Position numbers and translations under genes: made by a program
Virus record (IMG/VR): IMGVR_UViG_3300032285_000709
Span: 10,856 to 74,855 of that record
Reading direction: 5' to 3' (one strand)
DNA length: 64,000 bases
Source: a virus
Part shown: piece by piece, positions 17,294-32,868 of the stretch
Layout of the letters: each line of letters begins with the position of its first letter
Numbering within the stretch: the stretch's first letter is position 1
The notes under the pieces: generated by a model
The model's input: only the letters and a program-made list of their open reading frames with translations
What the model was told of the DNA's origin: nothing
Databases searched by the model: none

Positions 17294-17608
17294 ATGAAAG
17301 ACCAACTCAATAAAATTAACTGGCACATTAAACTTTGGCTCTGGTACGGCAGACTTAGCCCGGTACTATTCTTAATCGGAGCATTTTCGCTCTATCAAAT
17401 ACTCAACACGGACATACCACTTATTTTCTACGCGGCTTGGACAATTTTTGTCGCCACTGGAATCATCTGGTGGGCGTGGGTGATTAAAGTACTGTTGGAT
17501 ATGGTAAATTTATTCATTCAAGTAAGCGAACACGTTGAGTCAATACAAAATACCATCAAAGAAGTAAAAGAGGATGTAAAATCTCTCGACACCTCTAGGA
17601 AAGATTAA
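17294..17608 (+). CDS. two-TM membrane protein with coiled-coil tail
   Basis: AGGGG RBS; hydrophobic segments. Confidence 0.7.
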   Translation: MKDQLNKINWHIKLWLWYGRLSPVLFLIGAFSLYQILNTDIPLIFYAAWTIFVATGIIWWAWVIKVLLDMVNLFIQVSEHVESIQNTIKEVKEDVKSLDTSRKD

Positions 17609-17644
17609 ATAAAGATGCTATAATAATTTATAGCGTTAAAACTT

Positions 17645-17717
17645 AGTCGACTCCTATGGCATTCATCCGACTTTAAATATTCTGCATGTCATCAAACTTG
17701 CTACTTTTATAAAGGAG
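17645..17717 (+). ncRNA. candidate cis-regulatory H-type pseudoknot in queD leader
   Basis: AGTCG/CGACT stem; loop ATGGCAT pairs with ATGTCAT; loop CTCCT is anti-SD. Confidence 0.45.
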
Positions 17718-17724
17718 ACTAGAG

Positions 17725-18255
17725 ATGGCAAAATTCTACTCAACAAAAACTTACGGTAACGACCGCGGCCTATCATGCTGTTTTAGACAATGGCGTGCCA
17801 CACACAGCCACTGCTCAACACTACATGGTTACTCAATTGGCATTAAACTTGTGTTTGAATGCGACACACTAGACGACAAAAACTGGTGTATGGACTTTGG
17901 TGGTCTTAAAGAATTCAAAGCATGGGCTGACTATATGTTTGATCATACTTTGGTTATTGCCCACGATGATCCCCATCTAAACTTTTTCCAACAAATGGCT
18001 AATATGGGAAATGTTCCAAGTTCGGGAAATGGTGATCAAGGCTTTGATAAACTAGAACCATATCAACGTGGAGCATTATGCGATCTACGTATTGTACCAG
18101 GCGTAGGTTGTGAAATGTTTGCCAAAATGGCATACGACAAAATGGCCGAACTGCTGGCATCGGGCGATATGCGTTACCCAATCAATCCAACTGTTAGAAT
18201 TAAAACAGTTGAAGTATTCGAACACGGAGCAAATTCAGCTACATACGAAGGTTGA
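17725..18255 (+). CDS. queD: 6-carboxy-5,6,7,8-tetrahydropterin synthase
   Basis: CSTLHGYS, MDFGGLK, FDHT, GCE, VEVFE. Confidence 0.9.
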   Translation: MAKFYSTKTYGNDRGLSCCFRQWRATHSHCSTLHGYSIGIKLVFECDTLDDKNWCMDFGGLKEFKAWADYMFDHTLVIAHDDPHLNFFQQMANMGNVPSSGNGDQGFDKLEPYQRGALCDLRIVPGVGCEMFAKMAYDKMAELLASGDMRYPINPTVRIKTVEVFEHGANSATYEG

Positions 18256-18280
18256 CTTTTTCCAAACAATCTGCTATAAT
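18252..18280 (+). promoter_or_regulatory. sigma70 promoter TTGACT-17-TATAAT
   Basis: extended -10 TGC; ATG 6 nt downstream. Confidence 0.85.
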
Positions 18281-18286
18281 ATTGTT

Positions 18287-18790
18287 ATGATAATATATTT
18301 AGATATGGATGATGTAGTAGCAGATTGGATGGGCTATGCTCGTGCAATCGTTAATCGTAACTGGAACTACGGAGAACGTATTCCAGACGAAGATTGGAAC
18401 AAAGTTAAAGCCAAAGAACGTATGTATAGAGATCTACCTTTAAAAGAGGGTGCAAAAGATCTAGTGCAGTTTTGTCGCACCGCAGTTAGTACAGGCAAAG
18501 CAGATGGGTTATTTTTCTTAACAGCATTACCGCATTCAGATACGGTTCCCTGGGCCGCCTATGACAAGGTATATTGGGCAGAAAAATACTTTCCAGGTAT
18601 TCCTGTGTTCTTTGGCCCTTACAGTTTTGACAAACACAAACATTGTAAATCAGGCGATATCTTAATTGATGACCGTACCAGCAACTGTGAAGAATGGCGT
18701 GCCGCAGGCGGCCACTCACACATTTATCGTAACTGGGAAGAATGTAAACCTTGGTTAGAAAGCATATTAAATGAACATTCTAAATTTTAG
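18287..18790 (+). CDS. HAD-family 5'(3')-deoxyribonucleotidase
   Basis: YLDMDDVVAD, LTA, K, ILIDD; true start 18287. Confidence 0.88.
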   Translation: MIIYLDMDDVVADWMGYARAIVNRNWNYGERIPDEDWNKVKAKERMYRDLPLKEGAKDLVQFCRTAVSTGKADGLFFLTALPHSDTVPWAAYDKVYWAEKYFPGIPVFFGPYSFDKHKHCKSGDILIDDRTSNCEEWRAAGGHSHIYRNWEECKPWLESILNEHSKF

Positions 18791-19058: not shown

Positions 19059-19215
19059 ATATCACTGGATCAAAACTATTGTTGAAGACGATAATGGAGA
19101 ACTGATTCTAGACCTTAAAGAAGCCTGTGAAGAATTAGGGTGGAAAGAAGGTGATGTTATTGAATGGATCGACAATAAAGACGGTACATGGACCATTAAG
19201 AAAAAAGATGACTGA
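19051..19215 (+). CDS. AbrB/MazE-like small DNA-binding protein, 54 aa
   Basis: DNGELIL...LGWKEGDVIEW; absent from ORF track. Confidence 0.7.
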   Translation: MSRYHWIKTIVEDDNGELILDLKEACEELGWKEGDVIEWIDNKDGTWTIKKKDD

Positions 19216-19810
19216 AGTTATAGATGATGTATTTTCCGACAAGTTCTTTACTCAGTATCTGTTAGAAGGACTTATTTCCACTAAAGGGTGGCAAATATGT
19301 TCTGATAATTTTTATGAGTCATCTGTAGGTGATAGCGACTTTGAATCTTCAAAATACAGCGATCCCGGAGTTATTTTAGAAACATTTAATCAAGAAAGAC
19401 CGCCACAAGAAAGATTTGGTGATCATAGACTAAATGCCTACGGTGATTTAATCTTTACCAAAATTTTACATCTTAGCCAATACCAGTACGAAGGAGTTGG
19501 AGTGCTTCGTTACTTTTGGAATTATTACAACAGAAGTTCTACAGGACTATATCATTTGGATATGACTGATGCTGATCCACCTGGCAATTACTGTAGTATT
19601 GTATTTTACATTAACGAATCTGACGGTGGCACATATTTGGAAAAAGAGTTCTTTGAACATAAGGCAAATCGTGCTATAATATTTAATAGTAAAACCCCAC
19701 ATAGAGGAGTTGGCCCAACAAACGCAAAGCAACGTTGGAATTTAAACATCATTTTTAAATATGATACTGTGTCAAAAAAGACCGGCACATCGAATAGAAT
19801 CTTACTATGA
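19208..19810 (+). CDS. 2OG-Fe(II) oxygenase superfamily protein
   Basis: HLD, DGGT, HRG, R motifs. Confidence 0.8.
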   Translation: MTEVIDDVFSDKFFTQYLLEGLISTKGWQICSDNFYESSVGDSDFESSKYSDPGVILETFNQERPPQERFGDHRLNAYGDLIFTKILHLSQYQYEGVGVLRYFWNYYNRSSTGLYHLDMTDADPPGNYCSIVFYINESDGGTYLEKEFFEHKANRAIIFNSKTPHRGVGPTNAKQRWNLNIIFKYDTVSKKTGTSNRILL

Positions 19811-20835
19811 TTAAAAAAATTGGGTTCGCCTGCAAATGGATTGACGGACCTAGCCAAATCGACGGTATCAAACAAACCGATACTGCTAAACAATTCAACA
19901 CGGGCACAACTACAGTCGCGTGGTTAAATAGACAATCACGCGATGTGGCGGAGCAAAAGTTATGGGACCTAATGGTAGGCAATATCGAAGCAACAAGGAG
20001 GCTTGTTGAACGTGTCTCCACACTTGATCCTCACCTTAGGATGGTTAGGCTTTCTAGCGACATTCTTCCTGTTTATACTCACGAGTCTTTTGCTGATTAT
20101 TGGCGCCAACCTGATGTTATATCATACGCCGAAACCCACTTTGCGCGAGTGGGCGATATTGCTCGGAATAGCGGTGTTCGACTTAGTATGCATCCTGGCC
20201 AGTTTACTGTCTTGGCAAGTGATAACCCAGGCATTGTCCAACGTTCGTTAGAGGAGTTTGAGTACCATGCAGATATGGCGAGATTTATGGGCTACGGCAA
20301 GACGTTTCAAGATTTCAAGATCAATGTGCATATCAGTGGACGACAGGGCCCTGAAGGTATTCGTCGTGCCTATAGCAAACTCTCGCCAGAAGCAAAGAAT
20401 TGTATTACTATCGAAAACGAAGAAAACGCATGGGGATTAAATGACTGTCTCACTCTTATTGATATTTTGCCTATCGTGCTTGACATACATCATCATTGGA
20501 TTCGTGAGGGAGAGTACATACAGCCTGGAGACGACCGCGTCAAGCGAGTTGTGGACTCTTGGCGGGGTGTTCGCCCTACTATGCATTACAGCCTATCTCG
20601 TGAAGATGTACTTGTAGATCATTGCCCTTTAACTATCCCCAACCACGCTATGTTGCTAGAACAAGGATACAAAAAGCAAAAGCTCAGAGCACATTCTAAC
20701 TTCTACTGGAATAAACCAGCGAATGAATGGGCACTGAGCTTTTTAGGTACACACGATATTATGTGTGAGTCTAAGGCTAAAAACTTAGCCAGCTTTGCTT
20801 TGGCTGAGCAGGCTCGAGAGCTTACTTTGCTTTAG
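19807..20835 (+). CDS. uvsE: UV damage endonuclease
   Basis: IGFAC, RLSSD, SMHPGQF, IENEE, LDIHHH, AHS, MCESKAK. Confidence 0.95.
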   Translation: MIKKIGFACKWIDGPSQIDGIKQTDTAKQFNTGTTTVAWLNRQSRDVAEQKLWDLMVGNIEATRRLVERVSTLDPHLRMVRLSSDILPVYTHESFADYWRQPDVISYAETHFARVGDIARNSGVRLSMHPGQFTVLASDNPGIVQRSLEEFEYHADMARFMGYGKTFQDFKINVHISGRQGPEGIRRAYSKLSPEAKNCITIENEENAWGLNDCLTLIDILPIVLDIHHHWIREGEYIQPGDDRVKRVVDSWRGVRPTMHYSLSREDVLVDHCPLTIPNHAMLLEQGYKKQKLRAHSNFYWNKPANEWALSFLGTHDIMCESKAKNLASFALAEQARELTLL

Positions 20836-21088
20836 GCTTTTTAGCGGCTGTGGTTTTCTTTGCCGCTGGCTTTTTAGCTGTTGCTGTTGTCTTGCGTGGA
20901 GCACGTGGCTTCTTGGCAGGCTTTTCTTCAGCTACAACTGGTGCAGTAACTTCAGCAACAGGTGCCGGTGTTTCTACTTTGTACGGTACGGCTTCAGCCT
21001 GTTCAGCTTCAACTAAATCTTTTGGTTTACGGCTGTAATATACAACTGCACCAAGAACGACCGCGATAAGAACTAAAATAATTTCCAT
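20822..21088 (-). CDS. membrane-anchored Lys/Ala/Pro-rich protein
   Basis: AAGGAAGG RBS on - strand, N-terminal TM, histone-H1-like tail; TAAATA upstream (21119-21124). Confidence 0.8.
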   Translation of the reverse strand: MEIILVLIAVVLGAVVYYSRKPKDLVEAEQAEAVPYKVETPAPVAEVTAPVVAEEKPAKKPRAPRKTTATAKKPAAKKTTAAKKPKAK

Positions 21089-21132
21089 GGTATTATACCT
21101 TCCTTTTAAAAGTACAGCTATTTAATATCTCA

Positions 21133-21264
21133 TAAATACCAGGGAGCTAGAAAAAGAGTCAAGCGCCGATTTGCCGTTTAGCCACGCTGGCTGTGCTAGA
21201 AAAAGAAATAGGGAAAATTCATAGCTTGCGGATCCTCGGATGCCCTATTGACCGCTTGACAGGA
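21133..21264 (+). ncRNA. candidate structured 5' leader of sod
   Basis: nested inverted repeats and a 12-nt direct repeat after a TAAATA promoter. Confidence 0.4.
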
Positions 21265-21272
21265 TATTTACC

Positions 21273-21830
21273 ATGTATAATTTTATCAAAACTATTGCTG
21301 AAGGACGTACTCCAAAGGAATTAACCCAGATTTCTTTACCGTATGCTCACGATGCGTTAGGTCGCAGTTTAAGTAAACAGGCTATCAGTTATCACTACGG
21401 AAAACTGTATAAGGCCTATGTTGATCGCTTTAATGCAGGTGAGGGCGATTCTAACTTCAACGAAGCTGGAGCATACTTACACAGCATATATTTTAGCCAA
21501 TTTCGTCCACCTAAAGGTAGTAATAAACCAGACGGATCTATCTTGGTGTTTATAGAAAAGTATCATAAGACATGGGATACCTTTCAAGAAGCTTTTGAAA
21601 AGACTGCTATGGGCATACAAGGTAGCGGATGGGTCTATCTAGCGAAAGATGGCAAAATTAAAACAATCGTTAATCACGAAATCAAGGACGATATTGTATT
21701 GTTAATTGATTGGTGGGAACATGCCTGGGCACTTGACTATCAAGCCGATAAACAAAAATATTTGTCCAATCAATGGAAGATTATAGACTGGTCAACTATT
21801 AACAATAGAATATTTGATTTTAAACTTTAA
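21273..21830 (+). CDS. sod: Fe/Mn superoxide dismutase
   Basis: LPY, YHYGK, LHSIYF, GSGWVYL, DWWEHAW (all four metal ligands). Confidence 0.92.
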   Translation: MYNFIKTIAEGRTPKELTQISLPYAHDALGRSLSKQAISYHYGKLYKAYVDRFNAGEGDSNFNEAGAYLHSIYFSQFRPPKGSNKPDGSILVFIEKYHKTWDTFQEAFEKTAMGIQGSGWVYLAKDGKIKTIVNHEIKDDIVLLIDWWEHAWALDYQADKQKYLSNQWKIIDWSTINNRIFDFKL

Positions 21831-21842
21831 AGAAGCTATAAT
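21814..21842 (+). promoter_or_regulatory. sigma70 promoter TTGATT-17-TATAAT
   Basis: ATG 6 nt downstream. Confidence 0.75.
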
Positions 21843-21848
21843 AGTTAA

Positions 21849-22586
21849 ATGCTAAAAATAAAAAATCTTAATATAAAATCAGCAGAACAAGAACTAATCA
21901 AAGATGTCAATCTAGAAGTCAAACCCGGAGAAGTACACGCTATCATAGGGCCAAGCGGCAGTGGCAAGAGTGCGCTAATGATGGGATTATGCGGATTGCC
22001 ATTTGTAGATGTAGCATCAGGATCTATCACATATAAGTCAAAAAGCCTGTTAAAACAAACAGTCAGCGAAAGAAGCCTAAACGGTATCGCTTCAATATTT
22101 CAACATCCTGTAGAAATTCCTAACACAACCAATTGGGAACTGTTTTGTAATATACTTAAACACAGACAAGATCCTAGATCTCCTGCAGACTTAAAACCAC
22201 TGTATGACGAAACAGCAGAGAATCTAGGGCTAAGTATTGCTCACGGATTTAAAGCAGTTGATAGTGACAGCATGACACACGCCGAAGCTATGCTCAACGA
22301 ACTCTTAATATCTTTTTTACTTGATCCAAACTTATTGTTAGTAGACGACATAGACGAGAAATTAGAAGTTAACGACAAAACAAAAGTCGCATTAAATATA
22401 AAGAACTTCATTCACACCAAGCGAAGAGCGGGTATTATCTTTAGCAAAGATAAAAACGTGTTAAAGGACATAGAACCCACACACGTACATGTCATTGCAA
22501 ATGGTCAGATAGTTCTCAGCGGTGGAATTGAAATACTAACAAGGATTGAAGAAGATGGGTATTCAGAGCTTCCTACAAGCAAATAA
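21849..22586 (+). CDS. sufC: SufC-like ABC ATPase, degenerate
   Basis: GEVHAIIGPSGSGKS, FQHPVEIP, PTHVHV..G.IV.SGG; signature motif and catalytic Glu altered. Confidence 0.8.
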   Translation: MLKIKNLNIKSAEQELIKDVNLEVKPGEVHAIIGPSGSGKSALMMGLCGLPFVDVASGSITYKSKSLLKQTVSERSLNGIASIFQHPVEIPNTTNWELFCNILKHRQDPRSPADLKPLYDETAENLGLSIAHGFKAVDSDSMTHAEAMLNELLISFLLDPNLLLVDDIDEKLEVNDKTKVALNIKNFIHTKRRAGIIFSKDKNVLKDIEPTHVHVIANGQIVLSGGIEILTRIEEDGYSELPTSK

Positions 22587-23382
22587 AGGCGATCCTGATT
22601 GGCTTTATAGCCCAGAAGAATATTTTGGCAAGCAGTTTAAACTCAGTGAACCAAACATGGTTGAACTGAAGGAGGGCCGAAAAGATAGTGTAGTATTACG
22701 TCACAATCCTACAGAAAAGGGCTTAATAGCCAAACATCTTAAAATAGATCTTAGAGATAACAGCCAACTCGATCTTACGATTTTAAACGAAACTACTCCA
22801 AAATTACAGCAAGTATGCTTATACGATATTCATATTAGAGAAGGTGCTACACTGAATCTAGGGGTATTTGTTAAGGGTGGCAAACTCAATAAACATATAT
22901 TTCAAATAGAAATCGACGATGGTGCCAGTTTAAGCAATTACGGTTATATGAATAACAATGATTCGGGCGACACTGAAGTTGTTTTTAAAATATATCAAAA
23001 GGGCGCAGAATCATTATGTACACAGTTAATTGCCGGAGAGGCAGGGCCTAATAGTCAGACCGTGTATCAAGGCATGGTACATATCGACGAAGGGGCTGAG
23101 ATGGCCGAAACTGGCATAGAAAACGTTAATATCATTACAGGTTCTAACGGAAAATGCTACAGCAAGCCAGAAATCGATAGCCATAACGAAACTACAAGAA
23201 TGCGCTACGGTAGCCAAACTGCGTTCATAGATGATTCTATGTTGTTATACCTTAACAGCAAAGGGCTAACAGATGGTGTGGCGAGAAACCTTATTCTAGA
23301 GGGTTTTAAGAACACCGTATTCAATTTAATTCCCCAAGAAGATTTACAGCAAGAAGTGAGACAAATGTTTGATTTAGATTAG
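22555..23382 (+). CDS. sufD: SufD/SufB-like beta-helix protein
   Basis: YQGMVHI..GA, SKPEI, YL.SKGL....ARNLILEGF. Confidence 0.75.
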   Translation: MGIQSFLQANKGDPDWLYSPEEYFGKQFKLSEPNMVELKEGRKDSVVLRHNPTEKGLIAKHLKIDLRDNSQLDLTILNETTPKLQQVCLYDIHIREGATLNLGVFVKGGKLNKHIFQIEIDDGASLSNYGYMNNNDSGDTEVVFKIYQKGAESLCTQLIAGEAGPNSQTVYQGMVHIDEGAEMAETGIENVNIITGSNGKCYSKPEIDSHNETTRMRYGSQTAFIDDSMLLYLNSKGLTDGVARNLILEGFKNTVFNLIPQEDLQQEVRQMFDLD

Positions 23383-23478: not shown

Positions 23479-26400
23479 ATGCCATCAATTTCAACAGCCA
23501 GTCTAATTCAATCAATTAACTTAGGTGCCCAATCTAACGACGGAACGGGTGACGCAATACGTGATGCGTTTAATAAAGTCAATCAAAACTTTTCAACAAT
23601 CGCAGGAGTTTTAGGTGTAGGTTCTGGATTATATTTTACCAAACTTATCGATACACCACACGTTTTATCACCAAATAAATTAATTGTAACTAACCCAACA
23701 GGGTTAACTCTCACCCAAGTTAGTTTAGTTGGTCGCAATGGTATACAACTAACACTAGATCAAACAGCTAAAACGCTGACTGTTGACTCAACTATTACCA
23801 ACTTAGTTAGAGACCCAAATCCAATATTAGCAAATAACCTAAGCGGAAACTATGTTTATAGAGGTGTAAATTTCGTTGACCCAGTCGACGACCAAGACGT
23901 TGCAACAAAGAAGTGGATCTACGATAACTTCCTAAATCGTGACGGTAACTATGAATATATTTCCAACACCAATCCAATCACACATGCAAATGTAACTGCA
24001 ACGATTGTTGAAGGTAGTACTATACGCCACAACATACAATTAACACCTAGCGGAGCGAATACCAGCACAAACACAGGCAAGACTATCACTGTGTTTACTG
24101 CGTCTGGAACTACTTCAACCGTAGACATTAGTCGAGGACAGTGGTTACCCAGCCATGTAACACGTAAAGATTATGTTGATACTAAAATTAGTTTACAAGG
24201 TACCAGCACAATTGATCCGTTCACTGGACAGATAAACACCGGCTTTGGTAAGATGACCGGCGGATTAGAATTATTCCGCAGTCCAGCAGAAAGCGACAGT
24301 CCATTAATTGCCGCAACAAAAGCATACGTTGACGAGAATAGTCCAATTAGTAAAATTAACTTTTATGTTAGTTTAGCTGGCAACGATGCACGTTATGATG
24401 TGCCATCATACAAGCGTGGTAGATCTTTAGCCTATGCGTTTAAATCTATCGGTAAGGCCGCGGCGGCCGCCATTGAATCTGAAGCAGTTAGTGAAATTAA
24501 ATTAGGTCCATATCAGCGTTTCATTACTACTGATAACTATCAAACCAACGTACAAATTTCTAGTACGTCTACCAGTTTGATTCCTAATGCAATCAAACTT
24601 AATGTTACTTACAACGGTGGTCTAGGAACTGATCCGTTCAAAGAGCGAAGTATCCGCCCTGGTATGTTCTTACAAGGTGCCGATAGTAATGCAATGGCTA
24701 ATATATTAAACATCAGCTTAGCCAGCAATAGTAACGTAGAAGAATACTACGAAGTACAATACGTCGATTACGCACAAACATTTACCAGCGCAATTACCGC
24801 AGACAAACTCAGCGGCGATGTTACTTTTACCTTGTTTAACTATAACATAGTTCCTATCCCAGATTTCTGGATCGGATACATATTCCAACTTGAGCAAAGT
24901 GTCGGCGGGCAATCTGGTAAGATTATTAAAGTAGGCACTACTTATGACCCTAACGGAAATGTATACGATACATTCACTGTTAGAATGGACAGCGACCTAA
25001 CTAACCTTAACGCTATTTCTGGAACCAATTGGCACGTTTATTCTGGTTACTTTATTCAAGGCGAAAACTTACGATATGGTCAAAAGTATAACAAGTTAGA
25101 AATCAGCTTGATTGTTGAGTCGGGTGAATACAATGAGCAGTTCCCGATTCGTATGGCAGACAACGTGTCATTGCGTGGTGATGAATTCCGCCGTACTATT
25201 TTCAAACCAGCCTACGTAAACGGTACTGCTCGTGCAAGTATCAGTACATCACCTTGGGTTAATATTTGGTTCCGTAGAGATACACAAGTCGACGGCTTAA
25301 TCACATGTGCAATTAGTACAGCAACAGACTACGCATCTACACTAACTCAAGTATCTGTGATTCCATCTAGCGTAACTAACGATGCTACTACCGGTGTAAC
25401 TACATTTACTCTTAGCACCAGTAGCTCAGTTACTACACCAAAAAACTGGACTAACAAAGTATTTGCAAAATACAATCCAGATGGTAAGACTTACGCCGCT
25501 GTCGGAACTATTACCGCAGTCAACCAAAATACATTCTTTGTTAACTTAGCCGAGAACTATGACAACCAACGATCAATTGGTAGTACTGCTACCATTGCCA
25601 GCGGTGCGTGGCATGTGTTTGATCCTATTAACTTCGGTTATCATTATCTACGTGATCCTTCAAAACCAGCAAACTATATTGCAGGTCCAAACTCAGGCGG
25701 ACACGTACATGCCTATAACATTATTCAAGGCAATATAGAATTCTTAAAATCTGAAATATTCGGTTATGTAAATCAAAAATATTCCGGACAGTTTGTACTT
25801 GATCCTGTTAAGTGTAAACGAGATATTGGAATCTTACTAAATGCGATCGCATACGATCTTAAGTTTGGTGATATTAATCAATCGATTAACGCCGCAGATT
25901 CTTTTGTCAGCGACCCTAGTATTCTTTCAACAAGCTATGGAGCCAAGCTACCATTAACAGTGGACATGGTTGGATATATCAATACTATTTTACAAAGAGT
26001 GTTGATCAACGTTGCACCAACAACAAAATACTCGGTTGCTGTGCAAACTACATTTAGTTACAGCGCAGAAAGTGTAGCACTCTTTACCATAGCTGATTTA
26101 ACAGCGGCAATGCAGGCAATCATTAATAAAGATCCTAGCTTTAATCCTGCCAAGTATAATGACCAGTTAGACGTGTTCTTGATGAACGATGCGACCATCT
26201 TACGCTATTGCGGTGGTCAAGGTCACGGCGGTTTCATGAAAGTTCTTGACCCAGAAGGTCAAATTAAATCTAAGTCACCGTATACACAAACATGTTCTAG
26301 CTTCTCTAGATCAGTAGGTCACCACACATTCTCTGGTGGTATGTTAGTTGACGGATTCTGCGGTAACTTGCCATTAACTGTAACAACTCCAGGTCAGGCC

Positions 26401-29400
26401 GCACAAGCTGATACTCAAGGTAACTTAATCTTTATTCCTGTATCTGGTCTAGTACGTAAGCCACAGTTCCCATGTTTCTTTATCGACAACGGTATTAGCT
26501 ACGAAGTAGATTATATGAATTCATATAATTCGCTTGCAGGTACTGCGGTACTGGCGTTGAACTCAAACAACCCCGGTGGTTTCCAAAGCGTATCTATACA
26601 GAATGCGGCCGCTGAATTCCAAGCCAGCAGAACTCAATCTAACCCAATCTATTGTACCTTTATTAACCCAGGTATTGCTGGAGCTATCAGTGCAAAAGGG
26701 TTTGTTACAACTGATGCAAACGGTGTAATAAACGGCTTCAACGTAACATTCCCAGGTAAAGGTTATGTTGGACAGCCAACTATCATTGTTGGTCAAGCTA
26801 CGTTCAACTTTAGCATAGTCGGCGGTGTTATTAAATCAATGACCGTTAACAACGGCGGTAGTGGTTACACAACTGGCACAAAACTTACTATTTCATCACC
26901 AGGTGGTGGCGGTACACAAGCAACTGCAACTATTACAGGTGTTGACGGTAATGGTGCTATTACCAGTGTTAATTTGTCATATGGCGGTACTGGTTATAGT
27001 CTCAGTGTTACCCCAACTGTTACCTTTGGTCTACAATCATTTAGTGCTGTACTAAAAAATGGCTTTGTTGGTCCTCTGCCATTTAACATTGAACTTAATA
27101 CTGCTGGTAACCGTTCTATGTTGGCTAACGACTATACACAGATTAACGACTTAGGTTATGGTGTATTTGCAACTAACGGTGGTTTGATAGAAAACGTTAG
27201 TATGTTCACATACTATAACTGGACTTCTTACTATGCTCTTAACGGCGCACAAGTTCGTAGTATTACTGGGTCAAGCTGTTACGGTTTCTACGGTCTAGTA
27301 TCTGAAGGTTCAAATCCTTTAGAAATTCCTACACCAGTTACATTGCCTGATCAGCTAACACAAGTAGCAACAGTTTACAATCAAGCACCATATCAAAACG
27401 TTGCAGGTGGTGCGCAATTCTATGTGACTATCGATTCTACATACGGATATGCACCGTTCGCCGGAAGCGAAGTTGAAGTTAACCATTATGGTATTAGAAA
27501 GATCTATAACATACAAAATGCATCACAGGTAGTTAATAATGTGTATGTTCTTAGTATCGACACTACCGCTATTGGCGGCATTTACGCGGCAATCCCAGAT
27601 GGCACACCAGTAACTATTCGATTACAAACACAATTTAGATTGTATGGTCTTAACGCATCTGCGGTTACACGCCCAAGTACAGTATTAACACTTAACGAAG
27701 AATCAACATATATCTATCGTATTTTGAATTATGTTAATCTAGGCAGTGACTATGTATTAGCAGAATCAGAGGAAGCATACGACTATATTAGCATTACTCC
27801 GTATACAATAAACAGTAACTTCCGTCAAGGTATTGGACGACCTAGTTTTATATCAACAGGTTCTGGCTACACAACTACCGCAAATTGGACTGCCACTGTT
27901 GTAACACCTACAACCAAGTCGGCAGTAGTTCTAGGAAACCAAGGTACTGCTCAAGTAGGTGTAACTCAACTTAGTATTGCGTCTGCCAGTGGTCCAATCC
28001 ATCCTGGAATGACTATTACTGGTAACGGTGTATTGTCTGGACAACAGGTACTATGGGTAAGTGCAGATACTTCAGTTATTCAAACAACATTGGCACAACA
28101 ATGGACAGCAAGTACTACACTAAGCTTCATCGGTAGTACTGCAACTGCTTACGCAGTATCCGATCAAGCATCTGGTTACATTACAAATCTAGTAATTACT
28201 GATCCAGGTGTAGGATACGACTCTGCTCCAGCTGTAACTATTTGGCCAAGTCCAGTCGGTGTATCGGGTAACGCAAGTGTAACAGTTTCATTGTCTGGTA
28301 TGGTTGGTTCAAATGTTATTAAGACTTCTAATATCAAATCTTCAGATATTGCGAGAATTAACGCAGGCTTAACTGCGTCAACACCTTACTACTACCAATT
28401 CGGTTACGAAGGTCAGATGTATAAGATAACCAAATACGTTCCTGCAGGTACTCGTACGAAATATAACGATACCAGCGTAACAGGCGGTTCTTGGAATGAG
28501 ATTGAAATTACTCCGATCCAATCTGGTGCTACTTCGATGACTAAGGAGCTTTGGTATTCTAGTACACAGCCATTGTATGCTGGTATAGAGAAAAACCAAG
28601 GTGGTGCTGTAACTATACAGATTTCAACAATGCGTGCCACAGGCCACGATATGTTGAACGTAGGTACTGGTGGATATGCAAGTTCTAAATATCCAAACGA
28701 TCTATACGGTCCTCCAACATATCTACCTGACGCAGGTAAGATCACTAGAGAAGTTGGCAAAGGTCGTGTTTACTCAGTAACTACCGACCAAGACGGTAAC
28801 TTCCGTGTTGGTAAGTACTTCTCCGTAGACCAAGGTCGTGGTACTGTAACAATCAATGCGCCAATCGCATTAAGCGGTATTAGCAAACTATCGTTTAAGA
28901 AGGGCGTCGAAGTTGACAACTTCTCAATCGACGAAACGATGGCAGGTAACAGTCCACGTACTGTTCCTACAGAATCTGCCATCGTAGGCTACGTTGGTCG
29001 TAGATTAGGTTTTGATACATCTGGTAATAAAACATCAGTGCTTGGCCCAGGTGCTATTGCAACCAACGGTGTGATACCAATGGCGGCTCCATTGAATATG
29101 GCCGGCAATAAAGTAACTAACGTAGGTACTCCGACAGGCGGAACTGATGCGGCAAACAAAGATTATGCCGACGACAAAATAAGCAAACGAGGAACTAACG
29201 AGTTATTTTACAAAGGTGGTCAAGGCGCAGGTGTAATGAGCGGTTCGTTGATATTAAACGGCGATCCTAAAGTTGTTACACATACATTATCATCCCAAGT
29301 TAACAGTGGCGATGGATTACTATACTTAGACAGCACCGCTGGTATCGTGCCTGGTATGCAGGTTACTTACGACCCAGGAGTTGGATCATTTGGCTTTATC

Positions 29401-32400
29401 GGTGGGACAACTGTTACTAACGTTAGCACAACATCAAACGTAGTTAATATTAGTCCAAATGCTATCGGAACTGTTGCTCCAAGTACTACGTTATATTTTG
29501 ACAGCGTATATCAAGCGGCAAATAAACGTTATGTAGATAGTCAGTCTCAGATAGCGAAGATGCGTGATGTATCGTTAGTTAATTCAGCTGACGGTGACCT
29601 AATGATGTTTGGCAGTAATATTACTGCTTCTAGTTCAACAGTCACTCCATTATATAATTCTGCTAGACAAGTTGTTAACGTTGCTAACAGCAGTTCTGTA
29701 ATTACTAATACTCCATTAACAAGAGGAGGTGGTAGCGACATTACAATTAGCCGTAATGGACGTTTCGCTACATTTAAATTAGTAGGTGGCCAAGGATCAA
29801 CAAATCCAATTACCGATTATCATATTAATTCTGCGGCGGCTATTGCTCAGAGTAAATTATCATTGCAAGATGCAAAAGCAATATATAATACCGCACCTTT
29901 AAGTTTCAATCAGAGTTTATTAGGTGTTGCAACATTTAATAGCACTCAGTTTAGTGCAAGTAATGGTTGGGTAAGTATTAATCTTACCAGCAACCTAACT
30001 ACGCAGAGTTTAATTCCATCACAGAATGGAACATACGATCTTGGTAGTACAGGTAATAAGTTTGGAAATGTTTACGCTAATACATTGTTTGGTTCCATTG
30101 ACGCTGGACAAATTGGTGGCACACTAGGCATTGAAAACGGTGGAACAGCCGCAGGTACTGCCAGTGGTGCGTTAACTAATATTTTAGCAGGCGCTTCAAA
30201 CCAACCTTCAGTTGGATTTGTATTGAAAGCCAGTGGTACTGGACAGTTCTATTGGGCACAAGAATTAGGCGGCGGATTACAAACTGGTACTAAGATTCTT
30301 ACACAGCGTTTAGGAACTACAGTAGCATCAAACGGTCAAACAGTATTCACTGCGCCAACATACAGCATAGGTGCAGGTCAACTTCGCGTTTATGTTAACG
30401 GTGTTCGCCAAAGCGTAGATAGAAACGACTATACTGAAACAAGTACAACAACCTTTACGTTAGGTACTGGTTTAAACACAGGTGATTATGTTTTAGCTGA
30501 AGTTGATGGATACTATTTCTTCCAAGTTAATGCTAACGCAGTTGCATATACTGCCAGCTATCCATTAACTGCTAACAACGTACAAGATGCAATTGATCAG
30601 TTAAATGCCAACAAGTACGCAAAAACAGGCGGCACAATTACAGGTGATGTAACTATCGATACTGGTAAGGCATTATATCTAGCGGCCGGTACATCTACTA
30701 AGCCTGCCTTAAAATTGATTGCAGGTACAACGTTAACAGCTCCTCAAGTAGGTGCTATTGAATTTGACGGCACATATTTGTATTATACACAAACTGCTGG
30801 TACAACACGCATGGCAGTAGCAAGTCAAACTTATGTAAATGCGCAAGGTTTCTTGAAGTATGCTGACAATATTACAAGTGCTAATACATCAACATACTCA
30901 ACATACGCTGTGTATGCACAAAAAGCAGATACATCTACCTACGCGGCTATCGCTCCATGGAATGGATTAACTGGTACACCTCCAAGCAACACTATATTTG
31001 CTAACGGTGCGGCCTACTTAACATCGTCAGGTACAATTGACAATGCTGTAACAGCCGGAACTGCTAATAATCTTAACAGCGCAAATAGCTACCAAGTTAC
31101 TCGATTAGGTATTGGCCAAGCATTAGGTGCCGCCTACTTAACTATTGCGGCTGGTACTACTGTGCAGTCGGCTATTCAGTTGAACGTGGGCTCAACATTA
31201 ACCAATGCCGTAGTGGGCGCAGTTGAATGGGACGGTAGTAACCTTTACTTAACCAGCCAAGGTCCGACACGACATACAGTCGCTTACCAAGACTGGGTTA
31301 CTGCACAAGGATTCCAAACTGCATCAGGTAACGTACAACAGTCTAATTTAGCAACTACAGCTACATACGTTGTTAACGGTGTTTACACTACTGGTAGCTA
31401 TCCAAACCCAGCGTGGATTACCAGCTACGATGTTTCCAAAGTTACAAATGGTGTATCATCTGCATTAACTTATAGCAATCCAACATTCATTAGTGCGTTA
31501 GATGCAGGTAAATTAACAAGCGGTACTATTCCAAGTGCTACATTAGGTAACAGTTCATTATATATCGGTAGTACTCAAGTAGCATTGAATCGTGCAAGTG
31601 CTAATTTAAGCCTAGCAGGAATTCCGTCTATCGCAATGCCCGGTTCAACAAGTGGAACTATCACTTTACAACCTGCGGCGGTTGCTGGCAGTAACACATT
31701 AACACTACCTGCACAAACAGGCTCGTTAGCAGTTACTGGAGATAGCTTCTATATTGGTAGCACACAGGTTGCTAATAATAGAGCAAGTGGCAATTTAGCA
31801 TTAGCAGGTATTAGCAGTATTACATTGGCAGGTGCAACAAGCGGTAGTACAGTATTGCAACCTTCTGCAACTGCATCGGGTACATTAACATTACCGGCCG
31901 CAACTGGTACACTTGATCTAGTAGGTGCTACATTCTACATTGGTACTACCGCTATCACTAATAACCGTAGTAGTGCGGCGCAAGCGTTAACTGGAATTAA
32001 CAGTATCGACGGTACTGCGGCCAACGTTGCTAATGCCTTAACATTTAAAAATGATGGAACAGGCGCAGTAGCCGATAGTACATACAACGGCGGAACTGCT
32101 AGAAATATATCTTATAACTCAATTGGGGCGGCACCAGTAGGACAAACATTCTACATCGGTACTACGCAAGTAGCAATCAACCGTGCAACTGGTTCTTTAT
32201 CATTAACAGGAGTAAGTATCGACGGTAACGCCGGTACCGTTACAAACGGTGTTTACACAAACAGCACATTGTATATTGGTACTACTGCTATTACAATGAA
32301 CCGTTCAAGTGGCGCACAATCATTGACGGGTATCAACATTGACGGTAGTGCAGGATCAGCAGGATCAGCAAGTTGGGCAACTAACATCCGTGTTAGCTCA

Positions 32401-32868
32401 ACTGACTATGCAGGTGCTACAGCCGCAACAATAAACACAGTTGCATTACGTGATGGTTCAGGAAACTTAACAGCTAATACATTTAACGGTAACCTAAGCG
32501 GTAACGCTACATCAGCTAACTATGCTGACTTGGCAGAGAAATACACAACAGATGTTGAGTATGCTCCAGGTACAGTAGTAATGGTAGGTGGCAACGAAGA
32601 AGTTACTGCGGTAACAGGTCCAGATTGCTGGGTACTAGGTGTTATATCAACTAACCCTGCTCACTTGATGAATGCTGGTGCTAACGGACAACCGATAGCG
32701 TTGACAGGTCGTGTACCAGTTAAATTAAATGTTGCAGTTAAGAAAGGTGACCCGATTTACCCAGACGTAAACGGCGGCGCAACAAATGTAAGTAATGGAC
32801 GTCATCCATTTGGCTTTGCATTAACAACTACCACTGAGCCAGGCTTAGTAGAGTGTGCTATCAAATAA
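23479..32868 (+). CDS. giant tail fibre / baseplate-associated structural protein, 3129 aa
   Basis: N-terminal NDGTGDAIRDAFNKVN.NF, repeated A(T/N)KxYVD motifs, G.GYT repeats, C-terminal YADLAE chaperone-like domain. Confidence 0.85.
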   Translation: MPSISTASLIQSINLGAQSNDGTGDAIRDAFNKVNQNFSTIAGVLGVGSGLYFTKLIDTPHVLSPNKLIVTNPTGLTLTQVSLVGRNGIQLTLDQTAKTLTVDSTITNLVRDPNPILANNLSGNYVYRGVNFVDPVDDQDVATKKWIYDNFLNRDGNYEYISNTNPITHANVTATIVEGSTIRHNIQLTPSGANTSTNTGKTITVFTASGTTSTVDISRGQWLPSHVTRKDYVDTKISLQGTSTIDPFTGQINTGFGKMTGGLELFRSPAESDSPLIAATKAYVDENSPISKINFYVSLAGNDARYDVPSYKRGRSLAYAFKSIGKAAAAAIESEAVSEIKLGPYQRFITTDNYQTNVQISSTSTSLIPNAIKLNVTYNGGLGTDPFKERSIRPGMFLQGADSNAMANILNISLASNSNVEEYYEVQYVDYAQTFTSAITADKLSGDVTFTLFNYNIVPIPDFWIGYIFQLEQSVGGQSGKIIKVGTTYDPNGNVYDTFTVRMDSDLTNLNAISGTNWHVYSGYFIQGENLRYGQKYNKLEISLIVESGEYNEQFPIRMADNVSLRGDEFRRTIFKPAYVNGTARASISTSPWVNIWFRRDTQVDGLITCAISTATDYASTLTQVSVIPSSVTNDATTGVTTFTLSTSSSVTTPKNWTNKVFAKYNPDGKTYAAVGTITAVNQNTFFVNLAENYDNQRSIGSTATIASGAWHVFDPINFGYHYLRDPSKPANYIAGPNSGGHVHAYNIIQGNIEFLKSEIFGYVNQKYSGQFVLDPVKCKRDIGILLNAIAYDLKFGDINQSINAADSFVSDPSILSTSYGAKLPLTVDMVGYINTILQRVLINVAPTTKYSVAVQTTFSYSAESVALFTIADLTAAMQAIINKDPSFNPAKYNDQLDVFLMNDATILRYCGGQGHGGFMKVLDPEGQIKSKSPYTQTCSSFSRSVGHHTFSGGMLVDGFCGNLPLTVTTPGQAAQADTQGNLIFIPVSGLVRKPQFPCFFIDNGISYEVDYMNSYNSLAGTAVLALNSNNPGGFQSVSIQNAAAEFQASRTQSNPIYCTFINPGIAGAISAKGFVTTDANGVINGFNVTFPGKGYVGQPTIIVGQATFNFSIVGGVIKSMTVNNGGSGYTTGTKLTISSPGGGGTQATATITGVDGNGAITSVNLSYGGTGYSLSVTPTVTFGLQSFSAVLKNGFVGPLPFNIELNTAGNRSMLANDYTQINDLGYGVFATNGGLIENVSMFTYYNWTSYYALNGAQVRSITGSSCYGFYGLVSEGSNPLEIPTPVTLPDQLTQVATVYNQAPYQNVAGGAQFYVTIDSTYGYAPFAGSEVEVNHYGIRKIYNIQNASQVVNNVYVLSIDTTAIGGIYAAIPDGTPVTIRLQTQFRLYGLNASAVTRPSTVLTLNEESTYIYRILNYVNLGSDYVLAESEEAYDYISITPYTINSNFRQGIGRPSFISTGSGYTTTANWTATVVTPTTKSAVVLGNQGTAQVGVTQLSIASASGPIHPGMTITGNGVLSGQQVLWVSADTSVIQTTLAQQWTASTTLSFIGSTATAYAVSDQASGYITNLVITDPGVGYDSAPAVTIWPSPVGVSGNASVTVSLSGMVGSNVIKTSNIKSSDIARINAGLTASTPYYYQFGYEGQMYKITKYVPAGTRTKYNDTSVTGGSWNEIEITPIQSGATSMTKELWYSSTQPLYAGIEKNQGGAVTIQISTMRATGHDMLNVGTGGYASSKYPNDLYGPPTYLPDAGKITREVGKGRVYSVTTDQDGNFRVGKYFSVDQGRGTVTINAPIALSGISKLSFKKGVEVDNFSIDETMAGNSPRTVPTESAIVGYVGRRLGFDTSGNKTSVLGPGAIATNGVIPMAAPLNMAGNKVTNVGTPTGGTDAANKDYADDKISKRGTNELFYKGGQGAGVMSGSLILNGDPKVVTHTLSSQVNSGDGLLYLDSTAGIVPGMQVTYDPGVGSFGFIGGTTVTNVSTTSNVVNISPNAIGTVAPSTTLYFDSVYQAANKRYVDSQSQIAKMRDVSLVNSADGDLMMFGSNITASSSTVTPLYNSARQVVNVANSSSVITNTPLTRGGGSDITISRNGRFATFKLVGGQGSTNPITDYHINSAAAIAQSKLSLQDAKAIYNTAPLSFNQSLLGVATFNSTQFSASNGWVSINLTSNLTTQSLIPSQNGTYDLGSTGNKFGNVYANTLFGSIDAGQIGGTLGIENGGTAAGTASGALTNILAGASNQPSVGFVLKASGTGQFYWAQELGGGLQTGTKILTQRLGTTVASNGQTVFTAPTYSIGAGQLRVYVNGVRQSVDRNDYTETSTTTFTLGTGLNTGDYVLAEVDGYYFFQVNANAVAYTASYPLTANNVQDAIDQLNANKYAKTGGTITGDVTIDTGKALYLAAGTSTKPALKLIAGTTLTAPQVGAIEFDGTYLYYTQTAGTTRMAVASQTYVNAQGFLKYADNITSANTSTYSTYAVYAQKADTSTYAAIAPWNGLTGTPPSNTIFANGAAYLTSSGTIDNAVTAGTANNLNSANSYQVTRLGIGQALGAAYLTIAAGTTVQSAIQLNVGSTLTNAVVGAVEWDGSNLYLTSQGPTRHTVAYQDWVTAQGFQTASGNVQQSNLATTATYVVNGVYTTGSYPNPAWITSYDVSKVTNGVSSALTYSNPTFISALDAGKLTSGTIPSATLGNSSLYIGSTQVALNRASANLSLAGIPSIAMPGSTSGTITLQPAAVAGSNTLTLPAQTGSLAVTGDSFYIGSTQVANNRASGNLALAGISSITLAGATSGSTVLQPSATASGTLTLPAATGTLDLVGATFYIGTTAITNNRSSAAQALTGINSIDGTAANVANALTFKNDGTGAVADSTYNGGTARNISYNSIGAAPVGQTFYIGTTQVAINRATGSLSLTGVSIDGNAGTVTNGVYTNSTLYIGTTAITMNRSSGAQSLTGINIDGSAGSAGSASWATNIRVSSTDYAGATAATINTVALRDGSGNLTANTFNGNLSGNATSANYADLAEKYTTDVEYAPGTVVMVGGNEEVTAVTGPDCWVLGVISTNPAHLMNAGANGQPIALTGRVPVKLNVAVKKGDPIYPDVNGGATNVSNGRHPFGFALTTTTEPGLVECAIK
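31552..32340 (+). repeat. five degenerate ~24-aa repeats (F/L)YIG(S/T)TxxxxNRxxxxxxLxG(I/V)
   Basis: visible in the translation of the 3129-aa ORF. Confidence 0.8.

What the first reader, a model, noticed from the sequence alone, without database searches (positions are those of the whole stretch)
17645..17727. Riboswitch-like pseudoknot in the leader of phage queD
Seen: after TGCTATAAT (17616-17624) is a ~95-nt leader with P1 AGTCG(17645-49)/CGACT(17668-72), a loop segment ATGGCAT(17656-62) pairing 7 bp (one G-U) with ATGTCAT(17686-92) across an A/U-rich linker, and loop CTCCT(17651-55) complementary to the SD AGGAG(17713-17). Known: preQ1-I riboswitches are small H-type pseudoknots upstream of que genes. 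This sequence does not match the preQ1-I consensus I recall. Inference: a variant or new ligand-sensing RNA that feedback-controls 7-deazaguanine precursor synthesis in a phage.
Basis: partly seen in the sequence, partly recalled or inferred. Interest (0 to 1): 0.75.

Follow-up and report, generated by a model that had tools for sequence, protein, structure and literature searches.

The report
Phage queD-leader pseudoknot, riboswitch candidate
The leader of this uncultured giant phage's queD-like gene folds into a small RNA pseudoknot that over a hundred uncultured phage sequences keep through compensating base changes; it matches no catalogued RNA family and looks wired to switch translation on, so it is a strong candidate for a new, phage-specific riboswitch.

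Summary

**Conservation.** They form an H-type pseudoknot found in 117 distinct uncultured-phage sequences.
- P1 is paired in 99.6% of cells, and four of its five pairs show compensatory changes.
- All P2 pairs covary.
- The covariation score is 0.42, against 0.15 in shuffles (0 of 500 reach it).
- A loop-3 base co-varies with the middle P1 pair in 13 of 13 independent contrasts, as expected if loop 3 lies in the P1 groove.

**The third pairing.** CUCCU with the SD is present in the window, but it is not conserved.

**Known families.** No Rfam family matches. The preQ1-I model scores about 9 bits, against a cut-off of 39.

**Expression platform.** In 111 of 112 leaders the P2 3' strand can instead pair with the start codon or the SD. 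Forming the knot should therefore free the ribosome site.

**Gene context.**
- The regulated gene is the phage type of QueD (CxxxHGY), as in phages Iggy and phiST.
- Near-complete relatives also carry FolE and a QueE-like radical-SAM enzyme. Two of three also carry a phosphoribosyltransferase.
- None carries QueC or TGT.

The ligand is untested.

Earlier agents of this scan reached the same reading on other genomes.

The parts
17616..17624 (+). Extended -10 promoter-like TGCTATAAT. Transcription would start about 12-14 nt before P1.
   Evidence: Sequence. The two-hexamer scan did not list it because it lacks a good -35. In relatives, 53 of 116 leaders have a -10-like hexamer ending within 14 nt of P1 (mode 7 nt), and 16 have a TATAAATA-like box within 20 nt. 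The promoter role is inferred.
17645..17649 (+). P1 5' strand, AGUCG
   Evidence: Pairs with 17668-72. Paired in 99.6% of 92 sequences; 4 of 5 pairs show changes on both sides.
17650..17655 (+). Loop 1 (ACUCCU). The second base (C) and third base (U) are C and U in every sequence of both alignments; the first base is never G.
   Evidence: Its complementarity to the SD is not conserved.
17656..17662 (+). P2 5' strand, AUGGCAU
   Evidence: Pairs with 17686-92. The core five pairs are paired in 78-87% of sequences and all covary, on an alignment that was not fitted to P2 (variants listed).
17663..17667 (+). Loop 2, UCAUC. Its last base, C17667, is invariant and unpaired.
   Evidence: Invariant columns in the alignment derived from gene homology alone.
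17668..17672 (+). P1 3' strand, CGACU
17673..17685 (+). Loop 3, UUAAAUAUUCUGC. Invariant bases: A17675, A17677, A17679, U17681, C17682, G17684, C17685. A17676 and U17678 co-vary with the P1 middle pair U17647-A17670.
   Evidence: invariants. (co-variation: 13 of 13 independent contrasts, sign test p = 0.00024).
17686..17692 (+). P2 3' strand, AUGUCAU. This is the switching strand.
   Evidence: It overlaps the sequestor strand 17687-93.
17687..17693 (+). Sequestor 5' strand, UGUCAUC (the anti-start-codon strand)
   Evidence: Pairs with 17724-30 in the minimum-energy fold. Covariation C-G (32) versus U-A (23) next to the AUG, 98% paired against 75% in shuffles.
17694..17712 (+). Linker and inner part of the sequestor hairpin. 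CUU and CU segments pair with the SD in the sequestered fold.
   Evidence: MFE structures. This part is weak, irregular and platform-specific.
17713..17717 (+). Shine-Dalgarno, AGGAG
   Evidence: Sequence; 7 nt before the ATG.
17724..17730 (+). Sequestor 3' strand, GAUGGCA, containing the start codon 17725-27
17725..18255 (+). Regulated gene: a 176-aa T-fold protein of the PTPS/QueD family, phage type with CxxxHGY
   Evidence: PF01242, E = 5.6e-15. Below the QueD equivalog cut-off (34.7 against 89.25 bits). 46-53% identical to the QueD of phages Iggy, phiST and immuto, which share CxxxHGY.

Best explanation
The 5' leader of the phage queD-like mRNA carries a compact H-type pseudoknot aptamer of about 48 nt (17645-17692). 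It has a 5-bp P1, a 4-7-bp P2, and invariant unpaired bases in loop 1 (CU), loop 2 (UCAUC) and loop 3 (A.A.A.UCUGC). The P2 3' strand has two mutually exclusive partners: the loop strand, which forms the knot, or the start-codon/SD region, which forms a sequestor hairpin. Without a stabilising factor the local sequestor hairpin wins and translation is off. When a small molecule stabilises the knot, the P2 3' strand is captured, the SD and AUG are freed, and QueD is made. Most likely the ligand is a guanine-like heterocycle, that is, a 7-deazapurine or pterin intermediate of the FolE-QueD-QueE route. The invariant loop-2 C could recognise it. Shown here: the two helices, their covariation, the alternative helix, the gene association, and the absence from known families. 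Inferred: ligand binding, which fold is the bound one, the direction of regulation, and the ligand's identity.
For: 1) 74 of 80 loci found only through QueD homology carry the motif. A pattern scan of IMG/VR gave 82 further full copies among 120 rows. There are 117 distinct sequences in all.
2) Covariation: P1 is 99.6% paired; all P2 pairs covary; the score is 0.424 against 0.153 +/- 0.010 in shuffles (0 of 500) and 0.05-0.11 with slid partners.
3) Ten positions are invariant in the homology-derived alignment: eight unpaired bases and the closing P1 G-C pair.
4) Loop-3 positions 4 and 6 track the identity of the middle P1 pair in 13 of 13 and about 12 of 13 independent contrasts. This is expected if loop 3 lies in the P1 groove.
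5) The P2 3' strand pairs with the AUG (67 leaders) or the SD (44) in 111 of 112 platform folds. That helix covaries. Blocking the strand raises SD+AUG accessibility in 86 of 112 leaders (mean 0.39 to 0.58; window 0.14 to 0.60).
6) Window energies: P2 duplex -5.3, sequestor duplex -7.9, sequestor hairpin -9.1 kcal/mol. The default state is therefore off.
7) The first gene downstream is a T-fold/QueD-like gene in 77 of 80 cases. In the other three it follows in the same operon.
8) There is one copy per genome in a 91%-complete relative.
Against: No binding experiment exists and no ligand is known. All known preQ1 riboswitches repress, and an activator on a biosynthetic gene needs a feed-forward rationale that is only guessed here. 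In the SD-hairpin platform class, P2 and the sequestor overlap by only 2 nt, and the simple accessibility model predicts almost no change (L011 0.54 to 0.56; L022 0.56 to 0.53). In the window, a second and weaker hairpin could still cover the AUG when P2 is formed. A preQ1-I riboswitch separated from its SD can still repress (PMC10018353), so wiring alone does not prove direction. A 95%-complete relative (G002) does without the motif entirely. The loop-3/P1 co-variation could partly reflect recombination of linked blocks.
Confidence: 0.6

Rival explanations
1. It is a very divergent preQ1-I riboswitch that binds preQ1 or preQ0 and represses queD by feedback.
For: It has the same topology: a 5-bp P1, a loop-to-tail P2, a C at the end of loop 2, and an A-rich start of loop 3. 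It sits ahead of a que gene. The preQ1-I model aligns faintly to the copy in G003 (9.3 bits).
Against: RF00522 gives nothing at E <= 10 on the window's leader or on ten diverse copies. It scores 9.3 bits against a 39-bit cut-off, within the noise. Loop 3 is 13 nt with an invariant UCUGC, and P2 reaches 7 bp. The P2 3' strand lies 20-45 nt from the SD and is complementary to the SD or AUG, which is the opposite wiring. The near-complete relatives have no QueC, so preQ0 and preQ1 are not their own pathway products.
Confidence: 0.1
2. The pseudoknot is an operator for a protein, either a phage translational regulator or the T-fold enzyme itself. It does not sense a metabolite.
For: Phages use RNA operators for translational control. 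The invariant single-stranded bases could be protein contacts. The element is confined to one phage group.
Against: The element precedes five different T-fold subfamilies, and also operons that begin with a cupin, a methyltransferase or a radical-SAM gene. That argues against autoregulation by one protein. Its compactness, the loop-3/P1 coupling and an unpaired invariant C at the helix junction resemble small-molecule aptamers. No candidate regulator gene is consistently adjacent.
Confidence: 0.15
3. It is a ligand-independent element. For example, a 5'-end knot that protects the mRNA, or a folding timer or thermometer in which knot and sequestor exchange without a ligand.
For: The knot sits at the extreme 5' end of the predicted transcript. 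The two states are close in energy.
Against: Eight invariant unpaired bases and a pair-specific loop-3 contact are more constraint than a stabiliser or thermometer needs. The strict tie to one pathway gene is unexplained by a generic stability element.
Confidence: 0.1

Closest known systems
preQ1-I riboswitch (Rfam RF00522; B. subtilis queCDEF and T. tengcongensis examples, PMC6445138; C. antarcticum, PMC10018353)
   Same: H-type pseudoknot with a 5-bp P1. P2 forms between the P1 loop and the 3' tail. A C at the 3' end of loop 2 sits next to the helix junction. Loop 3 begins A-rich and appears to contact P1. It is placed ahead of a queuosine/7-deazaguanine pathway gene.
   Different: It fails the family's covariance model. 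It is larger: about 48 nt against a 34-nt minimal aptamer. Loop 3 is 13 nt with an invariant UCUGC, and loop 1 has an invariant CU. P2 is 4-7 bp. The P2 3' strand does not contain the SD but is its competitor, so the predicted logic is ON rather than OFF. It is found only in uncultured phages and two phage-like MAG contigs.
Translational ON riboswitches that work by anti-sequestor capture (for example the adenine 'add' riboswitch; from my own knowledge)
   Same: A strand of the aptamer is also the partner of the SD/start region. Ligand-stabilised aptamer folding releases the ribosome site.
   Different: A different fold (a three-way junction against a pseudoknot), and here the ligand is unknown.
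7-deazaguanine pathways of phages (phiST: FolE/QueD/QueE, dG fully replaced by dDG, PMC10516641; Iggy: dPreQ0, PMC10484667; survey in PMC6884629)
   Same: The regulated protein is 46-53% identical to the QueD of these phages and shares CxxxHGY. Relatives of the window's phage carry FolE and a QueE-like gene but no QueC, like phiST and Flavobacterium phage immuto.
   Different: Those cultured phages have queD inside tight operons without a leader, and they lack the RNA element. Neither paper mentions a riboswitch.

Membership tests
preQ1-I riboswitch (RF00522) | Scores at or above the family's gathering threshold (39 bits) with the Rfam covariance model | tested here: not met
   No hit at gathering over the whole window. 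None at E <= 10 on 17560-17800. None on ten diverse copies. 9.3 bits on the G003 copy, within noise, while the same search passed the cut-off in one control genome.
preQ1-I riboswitch (RF00522) | H-type pseudoknot: a short P1 hairpin whose loop pairs with the 3' tail | tested here: met
   P1 and P2 covariation.
preQ1-I riboswitch (RF00522) | Minimal aptamer of about 34 nt (PMC6445138) | tested here: not met
   48 nt from 17645 to 17692. Loop 3 is 13 nt with an invariant UCUGC. P2 is 4-7 bp.
preQ1-I riboswitch (RF00522) | A loop-2 cytosine recognises the ligand by Watson-Crick pairing (C15 in the T. tengcongensis structure, PMC6445138) | tested here: inconclusive
   An invariant unpaired C (17667) sits at the equivalent place, and the first loop-1 base is never G. 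Pairing to a ligand cannot be tested here.
preQ1-I riboswitch (RF00522) | Gene-off platform: ligand folding buries the SD or forms a terminator (PMC6445138, PMC10018353) | tested here: not met
   The P2 3' strand is the anti-SD/anti-AUG strand, so the knot should release the ribosome site. No terminator follows.
preQ1-I riboswitch (RF00522) | Binds preQ1 | not testable with these tools
   Needs in-line probing or ITC.
preQ1-II and preQ1-III riboswitches (Rfam) | Match to the family covariance model | tested here: not met
   No match to any of the 4227 Rfam families at E <= 10.
Riboswitch (generic) | A conserved aptamer with covarying helices and invariant junction bases in a 5' UTR | tested here: met
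Riboswitch (generic) | An expression platform with a mutually exclusive alternative structure | tested here: met
   The effect is weak in the SD-hairpin class.
Riboswitch (generic) | Direct, selective binding of a metabolite that changes expression | not testable with these tools
QueD (6-carboxytetrahydropterin synthase), for the regulated gene | PTPS/T-fold domain with catalytic Cys and Asp-His; signature CxxxHGH (PMC10516641) | tested here: inconclusive
   PF01242 is met. The NCBIfam QueD equivalog cut-off is not met (34.7 against 89.25 bits). The motif reads CxxxHGY, as in the QueD of phages Iggy, phiST and immuto. C30, H34, D73 and H74 are invariant.
QueD (6-carboxytetrahydropterin synthase), for the regulated gene | Pathway context: FolE upstream and QueE downstream in the route | tested here: met
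   Met in relatives only: FolE in G001-G003, QueE-like in G001-G003, and a single PTPS-family gene per genome. The window's own 75-kb fragment (21% complete) holds none of the partner genes.

The most novel reading that the evidence does not exclude
This is a new, phage-restricted riboswitch class. It is a preQ1-I-shaped pseudoknot that binds a 7-deazapurine or pterin intermediate (for example dihydroneopterin triphosphate, CDG or 7-deazaguanine). It turns queD translation ON, giving feed-forward control of a DNA-hypermodification pathway that runs through FolE, QueD, QueE and a phosphoribosyltransferase, without QueC or a recognisable TGT/DpdA.
Probability: 0.45. Interest if true: 0.85.

Novelty: new variant of a known kind. 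Interest (0 to 1): 0.78.

Why it matters
Riboswitch classes confined to viruses are very rare. An activating switch on a 7-deazaguanine pathway gene would be the opposite logic to every known preQ1 riboswitch. The element is small (about 48 nt), abundant and richly covarying. That makes it a ready target for ligand screening and structure determination. Its ligand would show which intermediate these giant freshwater phages monitor while they build modified bases. It also flags a phage que pathway (FolE, QueD, QueE-like, phosphoribosyltransferase, no QueC or TGT) whose product is unknown.

Tried and rejected
- **Rfam.** Searches at gathering and at E <= 10 on the window, its leader and ten diverse copies found nothing. 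RF00522 applied directly to five phage records gave only noise.
- **Single-sequence folding.** The window's leader is not better than shuffles. This test is uninformative for a pseudoknot.
Rejected as not conserved.
- **TAAATA at 17674 as the promoter.** Rejected as the explanation of loop-3 conservation.
- **Leader peptide.** The window has a 6-codon ORF, ATG 17656 to TAA 17674-76, but most relatives have no ATG in P2, so it is not conserved.
- **QueC in relatives.** The weak PF06508 hits are NAD synthase.
- **TGT/DpdA.** None found. A very distant DpdA3-like protein cannot be excluded.
- **Cultured phages.** BLAST of three leader types against 50,697 records gave only chance hits. The model found no copy in phiST, immuto or Iggy.
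- **Bacterial genomes.** One pattern scan, restricted to the commonest P1 (GCGG/CCGC), gave only two short MAG contigs that carry phage-like genes.
- **Literature.** Searches found no description of this motif.

Full report
**Observation**

- TGCTATAAT at 17616-24
- P1: AGTCG 17645-49 with CGACT 17668-72
- ATGGCAT 17656-62 with ATGTCAT 17686-92 (7 bp, one G-U)
- CTCCT 17651-55 and AGGAG 17713-17
- ATG at 17725
- TAAATA at 17674-79

By itself the leader is unremarkable. Its minimum free energy is no better than that of shuffled sequences (z = +0.69). The MFE fold contains P1 plus a hairpin that pairs UGUCAUC (17687-93) with GAUGGCA (17724-30), which holds the start codon. Rfam gives no match over the whole window at gathering thresholds. 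It gives no riboswitch match at E <= 10 on 17560-17800.

**Where the window comes from**

The window is part of a 74,855-bp IMG/VR virus contig that CheckV rates as 21% complete. It is therefore a fragment of a genome of roughly 300 kb or more. The gene after the leader (17725-18255, 176 aa) is a PTPS/QueD-family T-fold protein (PF01242, E = 5.6e-15).

**Comparative evidence**

A search for relatives of that protein in IMG/VR found 278. The best 80 were fetched, at 79-97% amino-acid identity.
- 74 of the 80 have the same element at the same place upstream.
- The six without it have queD directly behind an upstream gene. In one of the two near-complete genomes (G002) that gene is folE.

This set was chosen by protein homology alone. 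In it, 51 distinct leaders share ten invariant positions. In window coordinates these are G17649, C17667, C17668, A17675, A17677, A17679, U17681, C17682, G17684 and C17685.

A pattern scan of IMG/VR used only loop-2 and loop-3 invariants. In all I collected 117 distinct sequences.

**Structure**

I built a covariance model that knows only P1. I used it to align 92 non-redundant copies, so the alignment is not fitted to P2. On that alignment:
- P1 is paired in 99.6% of cells. Four of its five pairs show changes on both sides: C-G 59, A-U 17 and U-A 16 at the middle pair. The fifth pair, G-C, never varies.
- All seven P2 columns show double changes. The five core pairs are paired in 78-87% of sequences. 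For example, the pair next to loop 2 reads U-A 36, C-G 15, G-C 11 and A-U 10.
- The covariation score is 0.424, against 0.153 +/- 0.010 in 500 shuffles (none reach it). With the 3' partner slid by 1-3 columns it is 0.05-0.11.

RNAalifold independently returns P1. An earlier MAFFT alignment gives the same picture. P2 begins immediately after the invariant CUGC in nearly all copies.

**A tertiary signal**

Loop-3 position 4 (A17676) is A whenever the middle P1 pair is A-U or U-A (36 of 36). It is not A in all but one of 81 copies where that pair is C-G. Position 6 follows the same rule.
- The rule holds inside six different combinations of T-fold subfamily and platform type.
- On a tree of 108 downstream proteins, 13 phylogenetically independent contrasts on supported branches all go the same way (sign test p = 0.00024).

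This is what a loop-3 base docked against that pair would produce. The caveat is that the two sites lie only 6-8 nt apart, so recombination of linked blocks could inflate the count of events.

CUCCU with AGGAG is real in the window. Only 6 of 112 relatives reach 5 bp, and the mean best match (3.3) equals that of shuffled loop 1 (3.1). I treat it as incidental. Loop 1 keeps C and U at its second and third positions in every sequence of both alignments, and its first base is never G.

**Expression platform**

Folding only the stretch from the P2 3' strand to the start codon gives a clear result. That strand pairs with the start-codon region in 67 leaders and with the SD in 44, which is 111 of 112.

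The platforms differ in sequence. Examples are UGUCAUC/GAUGGCA, UGUCAUUG/CAAUGGCA, AAGUCAUC/GAUGACUU, CCUAUG/CAUAGG and UGUCUUC/GGAGACA. The P2 3' strand and its partner change together. The pair flanking the AUG is C-G in 32 and U-A in 23, 98% paired against 75% in shuffles.

Forbidding the P2 3' strand from pairing mimics the formed knot:
- Mean platform stability drops from -9.4 to -5.0 kcal/mol.
- Mean unpaired probability of SD+AUG rises from 0.39 to 0.58.
- Accessibility rises in 86 leaders and falls in 8.
- The window goes from 0.14 to 0.60.

In the window the P2 duplex is worth -5.3 kcal/mol, the sequestor duplex -7.9 and the whole sequestor hairpin -9.1. The unliganded default should therefore be the closed state. 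This wiring means that whatever stabilises the knot should activate translation.

There are weak points. In the SD-hairpin class the overlap is only 2 nt, and the model predicts little change. The window has a second, weaker hairpin that could still cover the AUG. A preQ1-I aptamer separated from its SD has also been shown to repress (PMC10018353).

**Transcript context**

In relatives, a -10-like hexamer ends within 14 nt of P1 in 53 of 116 leaders (mode 7 nt). A TATAAATA-like box lies within 20 nt in 16. The knot would then sit at the very 5' end of the mRNA. In the window, TGCTATAAT ends 20 nt before P1.

Loop 3 reads TAAATA only in copies whose middle P1 pair is A-U or U-A. Its conservation is therefore explained by the RNA, not by a late promoter.

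**What is regulated**

The first gene downstream is a T-fold protein in 77 of 80 resolved cases, from five subfamilies. In the other three it starts with a cupin, a methyltransferase or an unknown gene, and a T-fold gene follows in the same operon. One contig (L081) has two copies, the first ahead of a radical-SAM gene.

The window's protein:
- scores below the QueD equivalog cut-off;
- has CxxxHGY where QueD has CxxxHGH;
- is 46-53% identical to the QueD of phages Iggy, phiST and immuto, which all read CxxxHGY, with the catalytic Cys and Asp-His invariant.

Gene content of near-complete relatives (G001 91%, G002 95%, G003 66% complete):

| Gene | Result |
|---|---|
| FolE | present in G001-G003 |
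| PTPS-family gene | one per genome |
| QueE-like radical-SAM | present in G001-G003 |
| Phosphoribosyltransferase | present in G001 and G003 |
| TGT | none |
| QueC | none; the weak hit is NAD synthase |

This gene set equals that of Flavobacterium phage immuto. It resembles phiST, which replaces all dG with 2'-deoxy-7-deazaguanine (PMC10516641). The label "queD" and the link to 7-deazapurine synthesis are therefore reasonable. They rest on relatives, because the window's own fragment holds none of the partner genes.

**Distribution**

- One copy in G001, none in G002.
- None in phiST, immuto or Iggy.
- No aptamer-level BLAST hit in 50,697 cultured-phage records.
- A scan of 185,579 species genomes, restricted to the commonest P1 (GCGG/CCGC), found only two short MAG contigs (Bacteroidetes, Chitinophagales). 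Both carry phage-like genes.

**Comparison with known families**

The closest family is preQ1-I. It shares the H-type pseudoknot, the 5-bp P1, a C at the end of loop 2 next to the junction, an A-rich start of loop 3, and the que-gene context (PMC6445138).

Membership fails on several counts:
- The Rfam model gives nothing on the window or on ten diverse copies.
- It scores 9.3 bits against a 39-bit cut-off on the G003 copy, while passing in a control genome.
- The element is larger and has extra invariant blocks (UCUGC, UCAU, CU).
- Its platform logic is inverted.

Literature searches found no description of it, and the two main papers on phage 7-deazaguanines do not mention a riboswitch.

**Earlier work in this scan**

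The same element was noted on at least eight other genomes. Follow-up agents reached the same reading: real pseudoknot, no catalogued family, ON wiring. I reached it independently from the data above. Those notes are not independent evidence.
- the loop-3/P1 co-variation;
- the phylogenetic contrast test;
- the pathway context (FolE, QueE-like and phosphoribosyltransferase, without QueC or TGT);
- the link to the CxxxHGY QueD of phages with proven 7-deazaguanine DNA;
- a direct RF00522 test with positive controls.

**Verdict**

A conserved cis-regulatory pseudoknot is essentially certain. That it senses a small molecule is likely but untested (about 0.6-0.65). That it activates rather than represses is the better-supported direction. 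The ligand is unknown; a guanine-like 7-deazapurine or pterin intermediate is the leading guess.

Noticed in passing
window 18252-18280 and 18302-18790: A near-consensus promoter (TTGACT-17-TATAAT, with TG) starts inside the queD stop region. It precedes an NT5C-type 5'-deoxynucleotidase gene, so queD looks like a single-gene unit.
   Followed up: partly
window 19151-23382: A run of auxiliary genes: a 2OG-Fe(II) oxygenase-like gene (below the Pfam cut-off), a UvdE UV endonuclease, an Fe/Mn superoxide dismutase, and a SufC-like ABC ATPase plus SufBD-core protein. A 3129-aa structural-looking protein follows at 23479-32868.
   Followed up: no
L202 (G003 163000-177000); also L081, L201, L140: In relatives the motif-led queD sits in a cluster with FolE, a HIT-domain protein, a QueE-like radical-SAM enzyme, a phosphoribosyltransferase and several nucleotide-sugar enzymes (a GDP-mannose-dehydratase-like protein, a dTDP-sugar epimerase; KdsA in L182). 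There is no QueC or TGT. This suggests a 7-deazapurine nucleotide or nucleoside product made through a phosphoribosyltransferase, in the manner of tubercidin biosynthesis (PMC6112128 appeared in the search results but was not read).
   Followed up: partly
L081 1342-1399 and 2922-2979: Two copies of the pseudoknot lie on one contig. The first precedes a 312-aa radical-SAM gene and a 187-aa unknown gene. The second precedes queD and the QueE-like gene.
   Followed up: partly
L199 6231-7172 (minus strand): One phage has a canonical CxxxHGH QueD directly after the motif, followed by a CxxxHGY T-fold paralogue. The two types can therefore coexist and may differ in function.
   Followed up: no
SD-hairpin platform class, e.g. 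L011, L022, L066: The loop of the SD-sequestering hairpin often reads TGCTATAAT or TGCTAAAAT, a perfect or near-perfect extended -10 box. It could be an internal promoter giving aptamer-less transcripts, or it could be coincidence.
   Followed up: no
window 17656-17676: The P2 5' strand begins a 6-codon ORF (ATG GCA TTC ATC CGA CTT TAA) with no SD. It is absent from most relatives, whose P2 has no ATG.
   Followed up: yes
L205, L206: The only hits in the scan of 185,579 species genomes (restricted to the commonest P1) are two short contigs binned into Bacteroidetes and Chitinophagales MAGs. Both carry phage-like genes (tail-fibre/virion protein, exonuclease). They are probably phage DNA, and give a weak hint that the hosts are Bacteroidota.
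   Followed up: partly
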